From Microcystis aeruginosa NIES-843 (GTDB lineage: Bacteria > Cyanobacteriota > Cyanobacteriia > Cyanobacteriales > Microcystaceae): a stretch of 32,000 nucleotides of DNA. Location of the stretch: contig NC_010296.1 of assembly GCF_000010625.1 (NCBI RefSeq), forward strand, positions 2,370,001 through 2,402,000, written 5' to 3'. The notes beneath the pieces were generated by a model that saw nothing but the letters and a program-made list of their open reading frames with translations, had not been told where the DNA came from and ran no database searches. Below are positions 17,046 through 20,704 of this stretch, one piece after another. The translations under genes were made by a program, and so were the position numbers. Numbering within the stretch: the first letter of the stretch is position 1; every line of letters begins with the position of its first letter.

Positions 17046-18095
17046 ATGACTTTTGGCAGCAGCCTCGGTTTAGTTCTGTTAGTCTTTTGTCTGTTGATTC
17101 TCTGGCAGATTCGACAGATTCTCTTATTATTATTGATGGCGATTCTTCTGGCTCAGATTTTAAATTTGGCTGTGACTTGGTGGCAGCGTCATCACCTCAA
17201 GCGTTCCTACGCCCTAATTATCACTCTTTTTGGCTTCTTTATTGGTATTATCGGTATTTTTGTGGGGATTATACCCGCTTTAGTCCAACAATTTCGCCAA
17301 TTATTTAGTTTATTACCCCAAGCTATAGAAAGACTCTGGGGACAAGTCCATAGTCTTGAGGATTATCTCGATCCTAGTCTGGCCAGTGTCTTACCGGACT
17401 TTAAAACACTGCTCGCTCAATTACAACCCCTGATTAACCAAATTGCTGGGCGGGGTTTAAGCATTTTTTACGGTACTTTCGGCATTATCCTCAGCTTACT
17501 GCTAATTGTTGCCCTGGGCTTGATGATTCTCGCCGATCCTGCCGCTTACTACCGTTGTTTTCTGCGTTTATTTCCTGCTTTCTACCGTTCTAGGGTACGA
17601 TCGATCCTAGAACAGTGCGATCGAGATTTAAAAGCTTGGCTGAAAGGGATTTTCTGTCATATGTTGATTATGACCTTGGGCAGTTGCCTGGGTCTATCCC
17701 TGATCGGCATTCCCCTCGCTTTTTCCCAATCTATTCTCGCGGGATTTCTCACCTTTATCCCCAACCTCGGGCCAGTTTTAAGCACGATTTTACCCTTTTC
17801 TATCGCCCTTCTGGAAACTCCCTGGCAACCCTGGGCGGTTTTACTACTCTACAGCAGTATTTATCTGTTAATTCAATATTTCGACCGTCATTCACCGCTG
17901 CCCATTTTAACAGTGCGGTCGCTCAGGCTCTTACCCGCTTTTACCCTGTTAGCCCAGTTGTTTTTCGCCTCGATTTTTGGCTTTTTAGGGCTATTTCTGG
18001 CGGTTCCCCTGGCGCTTATCGGTCGTATTTGGCTAAAGGAAGCTTTGATCGAGGATATTCTCGATCATTGGCGGATTGGGGATAAAAAATCCTAA
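17046..18095 (+). CDS. AI-2E family transporter (PerM/UPF0118-type permease)
   Basis: 349 aa, polytopic and hydrophobic, with the typical family layout: N-terminal TM pair, central loop, C-terminal TM bundle. Confidence 0.75.
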   Translation: MTFGSSLGLVLLVFCLLILWQIRQILLLLLMAILLAQILNLAVTWWQRHHLKRSYALIITLFGFFIGIIGIFVGIIPALVQQFRQLFSLLPQAIERLWGQVHSLEDYLDPSLASVLPDFKTLLAQLQPLINQIAGRGLSIFYGTFGIILSLLLIVALGLMILADPAAYYRCFLRLFPAFYRSRVRSILEQCDRDLKAWLKGIFCHMLIMTLGSCLGLSLIGIPLAFSQSILAGFLTFIPNLGPVLSTILPFSIALLETPWQPWAVLLLYSSIYLLIQYFDRHSPLPILTVRSLRLLPAFTLLAQLFFASIFGFLGLFLAVPLALIGRIWLKEALIEDILDHWRIGDKKS

Positions 18096-18096
18096 A

Positions 18097-18169
18097 CTGG
18101 GGATCTAGGATTCGAACCTAGGAAATGGCGGGACCAAAACCCGCTGCCTTACCGCTTGGCTAATCCCCA
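18097..18169 (-). tRNA. tRNA-Gln (anticodon UUG)
   Basis: Cloverleaf read by eye. Acceptor UGGGGAU/AUCCCCA (U1-A72). D arm GCC-AAGCGGUAA-GGC. Anticodon stem GCGGG/CCCGC with loop UUUUGGU. T arm CUAGG-UUCGAAU-CCUAG. Discriminator G. CCA is not encoded. Confidence 0.9.
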
Positions 18170-18267
18170 TTGGACAGACCTTTTTAATATTAGCATTTAT
18201 CTCCCCGGTTTTGTCAAGAAGTTTATAAAAATTTTTTACTTAGGGTTTGCGGCAAAAAGTTTTTCGT

Positions 18268-18326
18268 GGGGGCAGGGTGTGGGGTGTGGGGTGTGGGGTG
18301 TGGGGTGTAGGGTGTGGGGTGTGGTG
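18268..18326. repeat. GGGGTGT heptamer array (about 8 units, some degenerate)
   Basis: Read directly: GGGGGCAGGGTGTGGGGTGTGGGGTGTGGGGTGTGGGGTGTAGGGTGTGGGGTGTGGTG. Confidence 0.9.
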
Positions 18327-18416
18327 CGATTCGTTGGCTAGAAACTAGACAGTAAGACGTTTAGAGGATTAGCCGCTTGGTAAATGTAGTACCTTGATAA
18401 CTTTATAACCCTACAG

Positions 18417-19108
18417 GTGCGGGTTAGTAATAACCTTAGTCCTGTCCTCTAGATGCCTAGAGTGACGGCATTTCCTGCTGCTTTAGACTTGGTACATCTG
18501 AGGTAGTGAGCGAGGAAAAAAAAGCGGTATCTGATAGCCTAAATCAGAAACCCGTTGAGCCAGAACCTATGGATAGCCCTGGGGCGAAGATACGAATTAA
18601 CCATCGTCAACACCCACGAGCCAAAAGGCTGACAGGCTCGAAACAAAAGTTAACAGAGTTGGGGCTGATAGCTCATACCACTATCAGTAAGGCATTCCCG
18701 TTACTCTGTTGTGGACAGTATCATCCTAAGGGTTCAACCAATGGTTATAGGGAACGAAGTAACCCTGATTGACTCTGCCCGTTCGGGGCAGTAGGAAACC
18801 ATCCGCAAGTCAATAGAGGGAGAGGATGTCCTTAAAAGCCAAGGCTTTGAGTAATATCAAAGATATGCTGACAAAGGACGGGTAACTAGGAAGTCTAAGC
18901 AACAATCAACGGTCATATACGCCCTAAAACCAACAATCTTGTCTGGTGGGGATACAGCCAAGAGGGTTGAATAGACAAGGAAATAATAATTCCCATTATT
19001 ATTCTACTAATGACAGTAGCCTAGTTACTCAGGAGCCGGATACGGCGAAAGTCGTAAGTCCGGTTTTGAAGCAGGGGGTGGGAAGGCGACTTCCTGCTCT
19101 ACTGTAAC
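18417..19108 (+). ncRNA. ORF-less group II intron (about 692 nt)
   Basis: 5' GUGCG at 18417. Domain V GAGCCGGAUACGGCGAAAGUCGUAAGUCCGGUUU at 19033-19066 has the AGC triad, an AA bulge and a GAAA tetraloop. Domain VI is a ~15-bp helix with a GCGA loop and a bulged A at 19101, 7 nt before the 3' end ...UAAC at 19108. No RT/maturase ORF. Confidence 0.75.
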
Positions 19109-19168
19109 GGGTTTGGGGTGTGGGGTGTGGGGTTTGGGGTGTGGGGTGTGGGGTTTGGGGTGTGGGGT
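19109..19168. repeat. 21-nt superunit array (GGGGTTT GGGGTGT GGGGTGT) about 2.8x, starting exactly at the intron 3' junction
   Basis: Read directly. Confidence 0.9.
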
Positions 19169-19192
19169 AGGGTTGATTCATGAATCAACCCT
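19169..19192. repeat. perfect 24-nt palindrome AGGGTTGATTCATGAATCAACCCT
   Basis: Read directly. It is followed by a partial repeat TGAATCAACCCTAGGGTTTGGGGT (19196-19220). Confidence 0.9.
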
Positions 19193-19236
19193 ACTATGAA
19201 TCAACCCTAGGGTTTGGGGTATAAGGAGAAAAATCT

Positions 19237-19422
19237 ATGGATAATAGCCGACAAAACTGGTACATTGTCCAGGAAAATACGGGAATTTGTCAGATTATAG
19301 CCCTAGAAAACGGAAAAACCCCAGTCAATGGTCAATACTGGGGTCCTTTTGCCGAGCGGGGAGAAGCGATCGCCCGTCGGGTGGGTTTAATTCGAGCGGG
19401 CAAATGTCAACCTATTGTTTAG
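19237..19422 (+). CDS. small conserved-looking hypothetical protein (61 aa)
   Basis: Strong RBS AAGGAGAAAAATCT before the ATG. Sequence is MDNSRQNWYIVQENTGICQIIALENGK... Family not recognised. Confidence 0.5.
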   Translation: MDNSRQNWYIVQENTGICQIIALENGKTPVNGQYWGPFAERGEAIARRVGLIRAGKCQPIV

Positions 19423-20704
19423 CGGTATTGGTGGGCGTTTTCTTGCCTTCAGTGATTTCTTTTTCCAAGATTTCAAAACCCTTCTTGAATTGAGGATCCT
19501 GGAAGGTTCCCACCTGCTCCCGTTCCTGTTGAAGATTTTTGCGATCTTCCTCGCTCAGTTCCGACTCCACATCCGGATGAATACCATCTTTATTGATGTC
19601 CCGTCCGTCGGGGGTAAGATACTTGGCAATTGTCACTGCTAATCCGGAACCGTCACTAAGACTGCGTACCGATTGCACTAATCCCTTACCAAAGGTTTTC
19701 GTACCGACAATAACCGCCCGATCATGATCCTGTAAAGCTCCGGAGAGAATTTCACTGGCACTAGCGGAACCACCATCGACGAGAACAACTAGAGGTTTAT
19801 TAGTCAAAGCTTGATTGTTGGCCCGTTGACGTTCCGTCACCCCTTTGCGATCGACCGTAGAGACAATTAAACCATCGGGTATCCACATCCGAGCGATTTC
19901 GATGCTGGCGTAGAGTAAACCGCCGGGGTTAGAACGCAGATCGAGAATATAACCCTTCACCTGTTCAGCTTCCAATTCGCGAATCGCTTGACTCATATCG
20001 CCACTAGCTTGGGCGCTAAATTGATTGAGACGGATATAACCGATTTTACCGATCGGGGTGTTTTCCGTGCGGGCCCGCACTGGGTGAATTTCAATTTTCG
20101 CCCGGGTAAGAGTCAATTCTTTCTTCTCCTCACCCCGTTGAATGGTGATCTTAACACTTGTCCCCACTTTGCCGCGGATCATGCTCACCGCTTGCTCCAG
20201 TTCCATACCTTCGGTAGATTTACCATCGATAGAGATAATCACATCTTTGGGCAGCACACCAGCTTTAGAAGCGGGAGTATCTTCAATGGGTGAAACCACG
20301 ACTAACTGCTTAGTTTTCTCATCTTTGGTCAGTTGAATCCCTACCCCGGTCAATTCTCCCGATGTATCGATCTTCATATTGTTAAACTCTTTGGGATCCA
20401 TAAAACGGGTATAGGGATCATTGAGAGTTTTCAACATCTCGCGGATAGCGGTGTATGCTTCCTCTTGATTTTTGTAGGAACGATTTAAATACTGATTGCG
20501 GATGGCGTTCCAGTCCGATTGATTAAAAGTGCCATCTAAATAAGTGCGGTTGATGATTTGCCAAACCTCATCAACGGTTTCCTTGGGACTTTCCTGAAAA
20601 AAAGCTTGACTTTGGGAGAGACGGAATCCCGCCCCCGTGACGGCGACGGTAGACAGGACCACTGCTGTAGCACCGAGAACAAGTCCGCGTTTGTTGATAA
20701 CCAT
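19412..20704 (-). CDS. carboxyl-terminal processing protease (peptidase S41, Ctp family) with PDZ domain
   Basis: N-terminal TM/signal segment. PDZ (GVGIQL...VVVSPIEDTPASKAGVLPKDVIISIDG). S41 core (LDLRSNPGGLL, VLVDGGSASASEI, TFGKGLVQ). Which Ctp paralogue (A/B/C) this is cannot be decided by eye. Confidence 0.9.
   Translation of the reverse strand: MVINKRGLVLGATAVVLSTVAVTGAGFRLSQSQAFFQESPKETVDEVWQIINRTYLDGTFNQSDWNAIRNQYLNRSYKNQEEAYTAIREMLKTLNDPYTRFMDPKEFNNMKIDTSGELTGVGIQLTKDEKTKQLVVVSPIEDTPASKAGVLPKDVIISIDGKSTEGMELEQAVSMIRGKVGTSVKITIQRGEEKKELTLTRAKIEIHPVRARTENTPIGKIGYIRLNQFSAQASGDMSQAIRELEAEQVKGYILDLRSNPGGLLYASIEIARMWIPDGLIVSTVDRKGVTERQRANNQALTNKPLVVLVDGGSASASEILSGALQDHDRAVIVGTKTFGKGLVQSVRSLSDGSGLAVTIAKYLTPDGRDINKDGIHPDVESELSEEDRKNLQQEREQVGTFQDPQFKKGFEILEKEITEGKKTPTNTAKQ

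What the first reader, a model, noticed from the sequence alone, without database searches (positions are those of the whole stretch)
18417..19108. ORF-less group II intron inserted at the edge of a G-rich heptamer array, with an apparent empty-site paralogue 100 bp away
Seen: GUGCG 5' end, a textbook domain V (19033-19066), domain VI with a bulged A at 19101, and a 3' ...AAC end. The only internal ORF (88 aa) has no RT motifs. Joining the flanks gives ATAACCCTACAG|GGGTTTGGGGTGT. The sequence AACCCTAGGGTTTGGGGT at 19203-19220 is nearly the same without an intron. Established: ORF-less group II introns depend on a maturase/RT supplied in trans, and introns often home into repeated or terminator-like DNA. 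Inference: this intron appears to target the dispersed AACCCTA/GGGTTTGGGG repeat family next to tRNA-Gln rather than a gene. That would let it spread through a multicopy neutral site.
Basis: partly seen in the sequence, partly recalled or inferred. Interest (0 to 1): 0.65.

Follow-up and report, generated by a model that had tools for sequence, protein, structure and literature searches.

The report
ORF-less intron homing into heptamer repeats
This is a real protein-less group II intron in a Microcystis genome, but it is 785 bases long rather than 692, and it sits inside a GGGGTGT tandem repeat that its own guide sequences read, which explains how it has spread to several such repeats.

Summary
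The 5' boundary is wrong. The inserted unit is 18324-19108 (785 nt), and it also starts GUGCG. Four related Microcystis strains have an uninterrupted (GGGGTKT)n array at this locus, and the break falls exactly at 18324/19109. Five other loci carry the same unit at the same junction, ...AGGGTGT(G/A)GGGTGTG^GGG, and AP019314.1 has two abutting copies here. The first 442 nt are collinear with RT-encoding cyanobacterial introns. EBS1 (CAUACC), EBS2 (ACACC) and EBS2a (C) pair with two consecutive heptamers, and all occupied sites have A at -15, as EcI5 and TeI3c/4c require. The "empty-site paralogue" at 19203-19220 is not a target. True unoccupied targets lie at 18274-18291 and 4753-4770 (minus strand). 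No maturase/RT was found in the fetched sequence, so help in trans is inferred. Verdict: an ordinary IIB-type ORF-less intron with an unusual niche, a G-rich simple-sequence repeat.

The parts
18324..19108 (+). Complete ORF-less group II intron (785 nt): 5'-GUGCGAUUCG ... CUACUGUAAC-3'
   Evidence: The indel against empty orthologous loci breaks at 18324/19109. The same unit occurs at five other loci and as a tandem dimer. It is collinear from nt 1 with RT-encoding introns.
18274..18323 (+). 5' exon: upstream part of the GGGGTGT array. A-15 = 18309, IBS2a G = 18310, IBS2 GGUGU = 18311-18315, unpaired GG = 18316-18317, IBS1 GGUGUG = 18318-18323
   Evidence: Tandem repeat finder. Complementarity to the intron loops. 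The same 15 nt precede every copy that still has its 5' flank.
19109..19168 (+). 3' exon: downstream part of the same array, starting GGG. Joining the exons restores the heptamer register, with no target-site duplication
18330..18336 (+). 5' strand of the helix that closes domain I (UUCGUUG)
   Evidence: Pairs with 18753-18759. Helix 2: 95.9% of cells paired, 3 of 7 pairs with compensatory changes among 7 homologous introns.
18753..18759 (+). 3' strand of the domain I closing helix (AACGAAG)
18413..18445 (+). It carries about 16 nt more than in relatives
   Evidence: Alignment A1 columns 105-137; helix 6 is 97% paired, with 3 compensatory pairs.
18568..18572 (+). 5' half (UAUGG) of an 11-nt-type GAAA tetraloop receptor (zeta)
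   Evidence: Read directly from the sequence. The flanking helix GAACC/GGUUC belongs to the covarying domain I stem. The receptor role follows from the known motif and is an inference.
18725..18730 (+). 3' half (CCUAAG) of the zeta receptor
   Evidence: Mutated in copies L155 and L156.
18608..18614 (+). EBS2a (C18608) and EBS2 (ACACC, 18610-18614)
   Evidence: They pair with G-14 and GGUGU (-13..-9). The homologous loop of L153, L021, L011 and L010 pairs with each intron's own exon, and EBS2a-IBS2a is Watson-Crick in 5 of 5 (C-G x3, U-A, A-U) (rule from PMC8643678).
18665..18687 (+). EBS1 hairpin CUGAUAG[CUCAUACCA]CUAUCAG; EBS1 CAUACC = 18674-18679
   Evidence: Pairs with GGUGUG (-6..-1), five Watson-Crick pairs and one G-U. 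The stem covaries (helix 17). The homologous loops of L153, L021, L011 and L010 pair with their own exons, ending at -1.
18763..18820 (+). Domain II
   Evidence: Minimum-free-energy fold of 18760-19108; the same fold appears.
18828..18879 (+). Domain III
18880..19030 (+). Domain IV stub (151 nt) with remnants of the lost RT reading frame: ...AGGAAG UCU AAG... at the 5' side, ...LVTQEPD... running into DV at the 3' side
   Evidence: Comparison by eye with the L153 IEP start and C-terminus. No Pfam domain.
19033..19066 (+). Domain V (AGC triad, GAAA loop)
   Evidence: RF00029; RF04356, 41.7 bits.
19071..19105 (+). Domain VI, with bulged branch-point candidate A19101
18274..18291 (+). Unoccupied full-match target (A-15 plus IBS2a/IBS2/IBS1 plus GGG) in the same array, 35 nt upstream of the occupied one
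4753..4770 (-). Unoccupied full-match target in another copy of the repeat element, 13.6 kb away
19168..19220 (.). It is not part of the intron or its target
   Evidence: Present unchanged in strains with and without the intron.

Best explanation
Window 18324-19108 is a 785-nt ORF-less group II intron of the IIB, chloroplast-like type. It arose from an RT-encoding ancestor by loss of almost the whole reading frame in domain IV.

It reached this site by retrohoming, that is, reverse splicing into DNA followed by reverse transcription. The site is an intergenic (GGGGTGT)n tandem repeat. The intron RNA reads two consecutive heptamers:
- EBS1 CAUACC pairs with GGUGUG at -6..-1.
- EBS2 ACACC pairs with GGUGU at -13..-9.
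- EBS2a C pairs with G-14.

The helper protein probably reads the A at -15. That would restrict insertion to places where a variant AGGGTGT (or CAGGGTGT) unit precedes a GGGGTGT unit. The 3' exon begins with G, and so does the intron. An occupied site therefore still offers the full 5' recognition sequence, which would explain the head-to-tail dimer in AP019314.1.

Shown: boundaries, empty sites, multiple independent sites, homology, domain I structure, EBS/IBS complementarity, and the -15 bias.
Inferred: actual splicing, current mobility, the identity of the trans-acting RT/maturase, and the origin of the dimer by re-insertion.
For: 1. Rfam RF00029 scores 55 bits on DV-DVI. The folding z-scores are -5.1 and -5.9.

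2. Empty sites: L129, L130, L136 and L131 are 98.2-98.9% identical in the flanks and have one continuous array. The alignments break at 18324 and 19109.

3. Copies of 98.6-99.7% identity lie in different flanks (L148, L150, L155). There is also an IS-disrupted copy (L149) and a deleted copy (L156). The four with an intact 5' junction read ...AGGGTGT(G/A)GGGTGTG|GTGCGA; the four with a 3' end read ...GTAAC|GGG.

4. AP019314.1 (99.5-99.9% identical flanks) has two directly abutting copies that differ only in an A-run.

5. Nucleotides 1-442 are collinear with the intron on Fremyella plasmid AP018240.1, whose ORF has RVT_N, RVT_1, GIIM and HNH domains. They are also collinear with Hormoscilla introns.

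6. The consensus domain I structure has 81 pairs, 89.8% of cells paired against 39-46% in slid controls. 47 pairs show compensatory change against 9-17, and 0 of 500 shuffles reach this. The closing helix uses nt 7-13.

7. EBS1, EBS2 and EBS2a in homologous loops pair with each intron's own 5' exon in 5 of 7 introns. The geometry matches PMC8643678.

8. A at -15 occurs in 5 of 5 occupied sites, against 11 A: 33 G: 3 C in 47 empty core sites. A-15 is a stringent target position for EcI5 and TeI3c/4c.
Against: - No RT/maturase gene was found in the window or in any fetched Microcystis locus.
- No predicted protein in the 5.8-billion-cluster collection shares words with the intron's ORF remnants, apart from tiny ORFs in other copies. 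A closely related master intron is therefore not in evidence.
- EBS3 could not be assigned.
- Full-match targets remain unoccupied within 35 nt and at 13.6 kb, so mobility is at best infrequent.
- Some copies are visibly damaged.
- Splicing and transcription of the array were not tested, and the consensus promoter scan found nothing convincing upstream.
- The dimer could be a duplication or an assembly error rather than a re-insertion.
Confidence: 0.85

Rival explanations
1. One reading: a 692-nt intron starting at 18417, homing into the AACCCTA/GGGTTTGGGG repeat, with an empty copy of the site at 19203-19220.
For: GUGCG is present at 18417, and AACCCTA...GGGTTTGGGG recurs at 19203-19220. A weak RF01999 match (26.7 bits, below the gathering score) starts about 50 nt after 18417.
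Against: - Empty sites lack the 93 nt at 18324-18416 as well.
- All other copies carry those 93 nt.
- The 93 nt are homologous to the 5' end of RT-encoding introns.
- They supply the 5' strand of the covarying helix that closes domain I.
- The EBS1 loop (CUCAUACCA) cannot pair with CUACAG.
- 19203-19220 is unchanged whatever the occupancy.
Confidence: 0.02
2. The copies are relics of a dead intron. They spread or persisted by recombination, gene conversion or slippage between heptamer arrays, and the dimer is a tandem duplication. No retrohoming is going on and no helper protein exists in these genomes.
For: - No IEP was found.
- Damaged copies exist: L149 is cut by an ISL3 element, L156 has internal deletions, and L155/L156 have a mutated zeta receptor.
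- Many full-match targets are empty.
- The arrays are recombination- and slippage-prone repeats that vary in length between strains.
Against: - Copies are 98.6-100% identical while strain backgrounds differ by 1-2%.
- Occupancy at one locus is 0, 1 or 2 copies among close strains.
- Junctions are exact to the nucleotide at six loci with unrelated outer flanks.
- No heptamers lie between the two copies of the dimer, as array-mediated unequal exchange would leave.
- The A-15 bias fits protein-assisted target choice.
- M. aeruginosa NIES-843 is reported to encode seven group II intron RTs (PMC8934634).
Confidence: 0.12
3. The 785-nt unit is a non-intron mobile element (MITE-like) moved by a transposase, and it merely contains a fossil domain V/VI.
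For: Microcystis genomes are rich in MITEs and IS elements (PMC2779907). The unit is short, non-coding and multicopy.
Against: - There are no terminal inverted repeats and no target-site duplication; the heptamer register is restored exactly when the unit is removed.
- The ends are the canonical GUGCG and AC.
- All six domains are present, with covarying helices.
- The insertion point is set by EBS/IBS complementarity.
Confidence: 0.01

Closest known systems
TeI3 ORF-less introns of Thermosynechococcus elongatus (CL/IIB1), mobilised in trans by TeI4 RTs (Mohr, Ghanem & Lambowitz 2010, PMC2882425)
   Same: - A cyanobacterial IIB intron that lost its ORF by deletion.
- Multiple near-identical copies, mostly intergenic or in other repeated or mobile DNA.
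- Sites match EBS1/EBS2.
- A-15 and position -14 matter in the target.
- Damaged copies coexist with intact ones.
   Different: - The TeI3 introns are 85-100% identical to co-resident ORF-containing TeI4 introns. No related ORF-containing sibling was detectable here.
- TeI3 targets are an RT start region, an IS200 element and unique sites. Here the target is a simple heptamer tandem repeat in which both EBS1 and EBS2 read the same repeat unit.
- Head-to-tail dimers are not reported in the sections of that paper I read.
EcI5 of E. coli (IIB1, CL1 RT) and the EBS2a-IBS2a rule (Monachello et al. 2021, PMC8643678)
   Same: The target geometry is identical: IBS1 at -6..-1, two unpaired positions, IBS2 at -13..-9, IBS2a at -14 paired to a nucleotide two positions upstream of EBS2, and A at -15.
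   Different: - EcI5 encodes its own RT and sits in a plasmid gene.
- C-18, C-17 and T+5 are also important there but are not conserved here: -17/-18 are G/U, A/U or G/G, and +5 is U or G.
RT-encoding introns of Nostocales and Hormoscilla (e.g. Fremyella diplosiphon plasmid AP018240.1, L153 3501-5927)
   Same: - The same 5' end, GUGCGAUUCGUU.
- Domain I is collinear (63.5% identity over 442-455 nt), with the same positions for the EBS1 and EBS2 loops.
- DV has the same AA bulge.
- The RT reading frame runs into DV.
   Different: - Those introns carry a roughly 600-aa RVT_N-RVT_1-GIIM-HNH protein and have unrelated targets.
- The Microcystis intron has a 151-nt domain IV and about 16 extra nt in one domain I hairpin.
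Introns that home to repeated non-coding DNA: IIC introns behind terminators or in attC sites; RmInt1 in ISRm2011-2
   Same: The strategy is the same: colonise a neutral multicopy site (from my own knowledge, plus PMC2882425 for the IS200 case).
   Different: IIC introns recognise a DNA hairpin, lack EBS2 and have a short DV. Here DV is 34 nt and EBS2/EBS2a are present, so this is not a IIC intron.

Membership tests
Group II intron (ribozyme) | Domain V with AGC triad and 2-nt bulge, followed by domain VI with a bulged A 7-8 nt from the 3' end | tested here: met
   RF00029, 55 bits against a gathering score of 40. A19101 is the only unpaired base in the DVI 3' strand.
Group II intron (ribozyme) | 5' GUGYG and 3' AY at the ends of the inserted unit | tested here: met
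   The indel boundaries from empty sites give GUGCG...AAC. There is a one-base (G) ambiguity in placing the indel.
Group II intron (ribozyme) | Six-domain secondary structure with a covarying domain I | tested here: met
   81 pairs, 47 with compensatory change, 0 of 500 shuffles, slid controls 39-46% paired. DII-DVI come from folding one sequence only.
Group II intron (ribozyme) | EBS1-IBS1 pairing ending at the 5' splice site | tested here: met
   CAUACC pairs with GGUGUG at -6..-1. The homologous loops pair with their own exons in L153, L021, L011 and L010, but poorly in L120a and L083.
Group II intron (ribozyme) | Self-splicing or protein-assisted splicing with lariat formation | not testable with these tools
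   Needs RNA data.
Subgroup IIB1/IIB2 (chloroplast-like lineage) | EBS2-IBS2 (5 bp at -13..-9) plus EBS2a-IBS2a Watson-Crick pair at -14, with EBS2a two positions upstream of EBS2 | tested here: met
   ACACC pairs with GGUGU and C18608 with G-14. The pair covaries across 5 introns (C-G, U-A, A-U) (definition).
Subgroup IIB1/IIB2 (chloroplast-like lineage) | EBS3-IBS3 pair with the first 3'-exon nucleotide | tested here: inconclusive
   +1 is G at all sites, but with 6 sequences in two clades many columns fit.
Subgroup IIB1/IIB2 (chloroplast-like lineage) | RT of the CL1/CL2 lineage | not testable with these tools
   The intron has no RT. Its RNA relatives encode RVT_N-RVT_1-GIIM-HNH proteins, but I did not place them in a lineage tree.
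ORF-less derivative intron | No RT/maturase ORF in domain IV; remnants of one | tested here: met
   DIV is 151 nt. The internal ORFs have no Pfam hits. The frame through DV reads ...LVTQEPDTAKVVSPVLK..., against L153 ...SQVIEEPDEVKVSRPVLK....
ORF-less derivative intron | A compatible RT/maturase encoded elsewhere in the same genome | tested here: inconclusive
   None in 32 kb of window or the other Microcystis loci, and none sharing words with the remnants. The whole genome could not be scanned. The literature reports seven RTs in strain NIES-843.
Mobile (retrohoming) element | Presence/absence polymorphism with exact boundaries, and several sites sharing the recognition sequence | tested here: met
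   0, 1 or 2 copies at this locus; six loci in all.
IIC (terminator/attC-targeting) introns | Short DV, no EBS2, insertion just after a DNA hairpin | tested here: not met
   DV is 34 nt and EBS2/EBS2a are present. The 5' exon is a G-rich repeat, not a hairpin.
MITE / transposase-driven element | Terminal inverted repeats and target-site duplication | tested here: not met
   Neither is present. The array register is restored on removal of the unit.

The most novel reading that the evidence does not exclude
This may be a bacterial retroelement specialised for a G-rich, quadruplex-prone simple-sequence repeat. Slippage in the repeat keeps creating and destroying homing sites. The -15 A variant acts as the gate, and an occupied site stays a target, so arrays of introns can build up.

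If the family really has no cognate RT-encoding sibling, it would also be an 'orphan' ribozyme that lives off a distantly related RT. This would be a prokaryotic parallel to the eukaryotic non-LTR retrotransposons that insert only into telomeric or microsatellite repeats. That comparison comes from my own knowledge and was not tested.
Probability: 0.2. Interest if true: 0.6.

Novelty: new member of a known kind. Interest (0 to 1): 0.4.

Why it matters
It corrects the annotation: the intron is 785 nt, and its target is the heptamer array.

It also gives a clean natural example of how a IIB intron's guide sequences and the -15/-14 rule, established experimentally for EcI5 and TeI3c/4c, determine where an ORF-less intron sits in a wild genome.

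Targeting a tandem repeat explains three things:
- why short-read and metagenome assemblies of Microcystis break here;
- why strains differ by 0, 1 or 2 copies at one locus;
- how head-to-tail intron dimers can arise.

For Microcystis genomics it adds a retroelement family that the genome papers I could read do not mention. It also links that family to G-rich heptamer repeats, whose biology is poorly understood.

Tried and rejected
1. The genome-contig scan used a degenerate DV pattern. Those loci did later supply relatives (L010, L011, L021, L083, L120) for the domain I alignment.

2. Three viral-contig scans with intron patterns found nothing.

3. The metagenome scan with the 19-mer at 18417 gave four hits. 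One (L151) was a chance match in unrelated coding sequence.

4. Searches for a master RT gave no Microcystis RT:
- tblastn of the L153 RT against all fetched DNA;
- a protein search with the L153 RT, where the top 120 were all filamentous cyanobacteria;
- two searches with the intron's ORF remnants, which hit only small ORFs called inside other copies (these led to L155 and L156).

5. EBS3 assignment by covariation with the +1 nucleotide was not resolvable.

6. The 8-bp complementarity of intron 18408-18415 (ACCCUACA) to exon -18..-11 was rejected as an exon-binding site. In the covarying structure that segment pairs with 18748-18752 (helix 5). It would compete with EBS2/EBS2a, and the register is not kept at L150 and L155.

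7. The 9-bp match of 18918-26 in domain IV was treated as chance.

8. The promoter/terminator scan showed nothing above shuffled expectation.

9. The Microcystis genome papers do not mention these introns or the heptamer arrays.
Full report
**What is at the coordinates.** Rfam's group II intron model (RF00029, domains V-VI) matches 19031-19108 on the + strand at 55 bits, against a gathering score of 40 (E 2.3e-8). It is the only such match in the 32-kb window.
- Domain V is 19033-19066 and has a GAAA loop.
- Domain VI is 19071-19105. Its one unpaired base in the 3' strand is A19101, 7 nt before the end ...CUGUAAC.
- The region folds far better than shuffled sequence, with z = -5.9 for 18417-19108 and -5.1 for 18324-19108.
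- The two internal ORFs (88 and 53 aa) have no Pfam match.
- tRNA-Gln(UUG) lies at 18097-18169 on the minus strand.
- GGGGTGT arrays lie at 18275-18324 and 19109-19168.

**The 5' boundary is wrong.** The neighbouring proteins are the AI-2E-type permease (17046-18095), a 61-aa ORF (19237-19422) and a PDZ/S41 protease (19412-20704, minus strand). They are encoded identically in NCBI record AP019314.1 and in several Microcystis assemblies and metagenome contigs.
- In four of these (L129, L130, L136, L131; flanks 98.2-98.9% identical to the window), the space between tRNA-Gln and the 61-aa gene is one uninterrupted (GGGGTKT)n array.
- The alignments to the window stop at 18324 and resume at 19109.
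- The missing piece is therefore 18324-19108 (785 nt; a single G makes the placement ambiguous by one base).
- The piece itself begins GUGCGAUUCG.
- Removing it restores the heptamer register (GGGGTGT G|GGGTTT GGGGTGT), so there is no target-site duplication.

**More copies.** A metagenome scan and two small ORFs called inside other copies led to further insertions.
- L148, L150 and L155 (M. aeruginosa PCC 9443) are full copies, 98.6-99.7% identical.
- L149 has the first 139 nt, followed by an ISL3-family insertion sequence.
- L156 is an internally deleted copy.
- The outer flanks are unrelated, so together with the window these are six separate loci.
- The four full or 5'-intact copies read ...AGGGTGT(G/A)GGGTGTG|GTGCGATT at the 5' junction.
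- The four copies with a 3' end read ...CTGTAAC|GGG.
- In AP019314.1 (flanks 99.5-99.9% identical to the window but with SNPs, so a different strain), the window's locus holds two copies that abut directly (...CTGTAAC|GTGCGATTCG...). They differ only in the length of an A-run.

**Homology shows that 18324 is a canonical intron 5' end.** A BLAST search of the 785 nt against plasmid records matched nt 1-60/96 to several Nostocales plasmids.
- On Fremyella diplosiphon plasmid AP018240.1 the match is the first base of a 2.4-kb intron (L153 3501-5927).
- That intron has its own RF00029 match and a 607-aa ORF with RVT_N, RVT_1, GIIM and HNH domains.
- With relaxed scoring, nt 1-442 of the Microcystis element align collinearly with that intron's domain I at 63.5% identity.
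- They also align with introns from Hormoscilla genomes that my otherwise wasted genome scan had fetched.

I aligned seven of these introns (A1). RNAalifold gives 81 pairs, of which 47 are kept through changes on both sides. Counting on that structure gives the following:

| Measure | Structure | Partners slid 1-3 columns |
|---|---|---|
| Cells paired | 89.8% | 39-46% |
| Pairs with compensatory change | 47 | 9-17 |

None of 500 shuffles reached the observed values. The structure was derived from the same alignment, so this is favourable to it, but the margin is large.
- The helix that closes domain I pairs nt 7-13 (18330-18336) with 18753-18759 and covaries: UA to AU at two pairs and CG to UA at a third.
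- An intron starting at 18417 would lack that strand.
This is a covarying helix in all seven introns, and in Microcystis it carries about 16 extra nucleotides.

**How the target is read.** The terminal loop of hairpin 18665-18687 (CUGAUAG[CUCAUACCA]CUAUCAG) contains CAUACC. This pairs with the last six exon bases, GGUGUG.
- About 60 nt upstream, an internal loop (UCAACACCCA) contains ACACC, which pairs with GGUGU at -13..-9.
- Two positions upstream of ACACC is C18608, opposite G at -14.
- This is exactly the EBS1/EBS2/EBS2a geometry described for IIB1 and IIB2 introns: IBS2a immediately 5' of IBS2, and EBS2a two positions 5' of EBS2 (PMC8643678).
- The homologous loops of L153, L021, L011 and L010 pair with each intron's own, unrelated 5' exon in the same registers.
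- The EBS2a-IBS2a pair is Watson-Crick in all five introns (C-G three times, U-A, A-U). Two relatives (L120a, L083) fit poorly.
- The one target position that varies among occupied sites (G or A at -8) falls in the two unpaired positions between IBS2 and IBS1.
- Both guide sequences therefore read the same repeat unit in two successive copies.
- A GAAA-tetraloop receptor of the 11-nt type (UAUGG 18568-72 / CCUAAG 18725-30) sits in the covarying domain I stem, and DV has a GAAA loop. That the two interact is inferred from the known motif.

**Why only some registers are used.** The loci I hold contain 47 unoccupied copies of the 14-nt core followed by GGG. The base at -15 there is G 33 times, A 11 times and C 3 times.
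- All five occupied sites with a known 5' flank have A. With A at about 0.23-0.31, the chance of this is roughly 0.001-0.003.
- A-15 is one of the stringently required target positions of EcI5 and of the TeI3c/4c thermotargetron, and it is thought to be read by the RT (PMC8643678).
- I take this as indirect evidence that a CL-type RT chose these sites.
- Full-match sites with A-15 are still empty at 18274-18291, 35 nt upstream in the same array, and at 4753-4770 on the minus strand.
- These, and not 19203-19220, are the empty paralogues.

AACCCTAGGGTTTGGGGT (19203-19220) is part of a palindromic block (TAGGGTTGATTCAT / ATGAATCAACCCTA). This block is identical in strains with zero, one or two intron copies. 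It has no IBS1/IBS2 arrangement.

**The dimer.** The 3' exon starts with G, and so does the intron. After insertion, the 5' exon plus the first intron base still present A-15, IBS2a, IBS2, IBS1 and +1 G.
- A second reverse-splicing event at the exon-intron junction would give exactly the head-to-tail arrangement seen in AP019314.1.
- Consistent with this, the downstream copy is identical to the window's single copy, while the upstream one differs in the A-run.
- Unequal exchange between the flanking arrays would leave heptamers between the copies, and there are none.
- This reading is an inference. A duplication by slippage or an assembly error is not excluded.

**The helper protein.** Domain IV is a 151-nt stub.
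- By eye, it retains the ribosome-binding region and first codons (AGGAAG UCU AAG, against L153 AGGAAGUAUAUAUG UCU AAA).
- It also retains a C-terminal frame running into DV (LVTQEPDTAKVVSPVLK, against SQVIEEPDEVKVSRPVLK).
- The intron therefore descends from an RT-encoding one.
- I found no RT in the window or in any fetched Microcystis locus.
- I found no Microcystis protein among the 120 best relatives of the L153 RT.
- I found no protein sharing words with the remnants, apart from tiny ORFs in other copies.
- The whole genome could not be scanned.
- A published survey reports seven group II intron RTs in M. aeruginosa NIES-843 (PMC8934634).
- Help in trans is therefore plausible but not shown. 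A closely related master intron, such as the TeI3 introns have, is not in evidence.

**Comparison and verdict.**
- The closest described system is the TeI3/TeI4 family of Thermosynechococcus elongatus. There, ORF-less CL/IIB1 introns derived by ORF deletion have multiplied in intergenic and repeated DNA, at sites matching their EBS sequences, with RTs supplied by sibling introns (PMC2882425).
- The Microcystis element works like these. It passes every RNA-level membership test I could run for a IIB group II intron. EBS3, the RT lineage and splicing remain untested.
- What differs is the niche: a G-rich heptamer simple-sequence repeat. This kind of repeat is known in cyanobacteria as abundant, intergenic and quadruplex-prone (PMC4692102).
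- Two full-text literature searches for an intron-repeat link surfaced no such case, and the two Microcystis genome papers I searched mention neither this intron family nor these arrays.
- It is a new member of a known kind, of moderate interest.

Noticed in passing
window 18242-18279 (+) and 4798-4764 (-); L150, L155: The GGGGTKT arrays start with a conserved ~35-nt leader (AGGGTYTGCKG(C)AAAAAGYTTTTCSTRGGGGCAGGGT). Some also share a tail (GGGGTTTTACCRRTTTTGAGG...AATTTTCAGGGAAAAAGTACCTGAATTT). The arrays are therefore part of a dispersed intergenic repeat element of unknown function.
   Followed up: partly
L133 3625-4000 and L134 (the orthologous site is window 19220|19221): In other Microcystis strains a ~440-nt non-coding element is inserted right after GGGTTTGGGGT. 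Its size resembles MaeMITEf (429 bp) of the NIES-843 genome paper, but identity was not tested.
   Followed up: no
L149 12611-14652: One intron copy is interrupted after nt 139 by an insertion sequence. Its 384-aa transposase has Zn_ribbon_ISL3, HTH_Tnp_ISL3 and DDE_Tnp_ISL3 domains.
   Followed up: partly
L148, L155, L156 flanks: Other heptamer arrays (GATAACT/TAACTGA and ACTGATC units) lie within about 100 nt of several intron sites. TAACTGA direct repeats have been described in Beggiatoaceae and cyanobacteria, including Microcystis (PMC4679880).
   Followed up: no
L155 ~1880-1905; L156 ~95-130: Two copies share a variant in which the 3' half of the putative tetraloop receptor is replaced (CAUCAAAUACGG for CAUCCUAAGGG) and a nearby stretch is changed (CUCUCGGUGG for CUCUGUUGUGG). 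L156 also has a C-to-U change in the EBS1 loop. These copies are probably impaired as ribozymes.
   Followed up: no
L140 3095-3204: The last ~110 nt of this metagenome contig diverge by about 15% from the window's intron but keep the EBS2 loop. This suggests a second, more divergent subfamily, or an assembly chimera, in the same sample.
   Followed up: no
window 19237-19422 (+): The 61-aa ORF downstream of the array has a strong ribosome-binding site, is identical in many Microcystis assemblies (88 index blocks) and has no Pfam family. If the array is transcribed from upstream, the intron would lie in this gene's 5' untranslated region.
   Followed up: no
L154 3501-4629 (Nostoc sp. UHCC 0926 plasmid pn1): This is a 1.1-kb deletion derivative of the related Nostocales intron. 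It keeps the first ~200 nt, part of the RT frame and DV-DVI, but has lost most of domains I-III.
   Followed up: no
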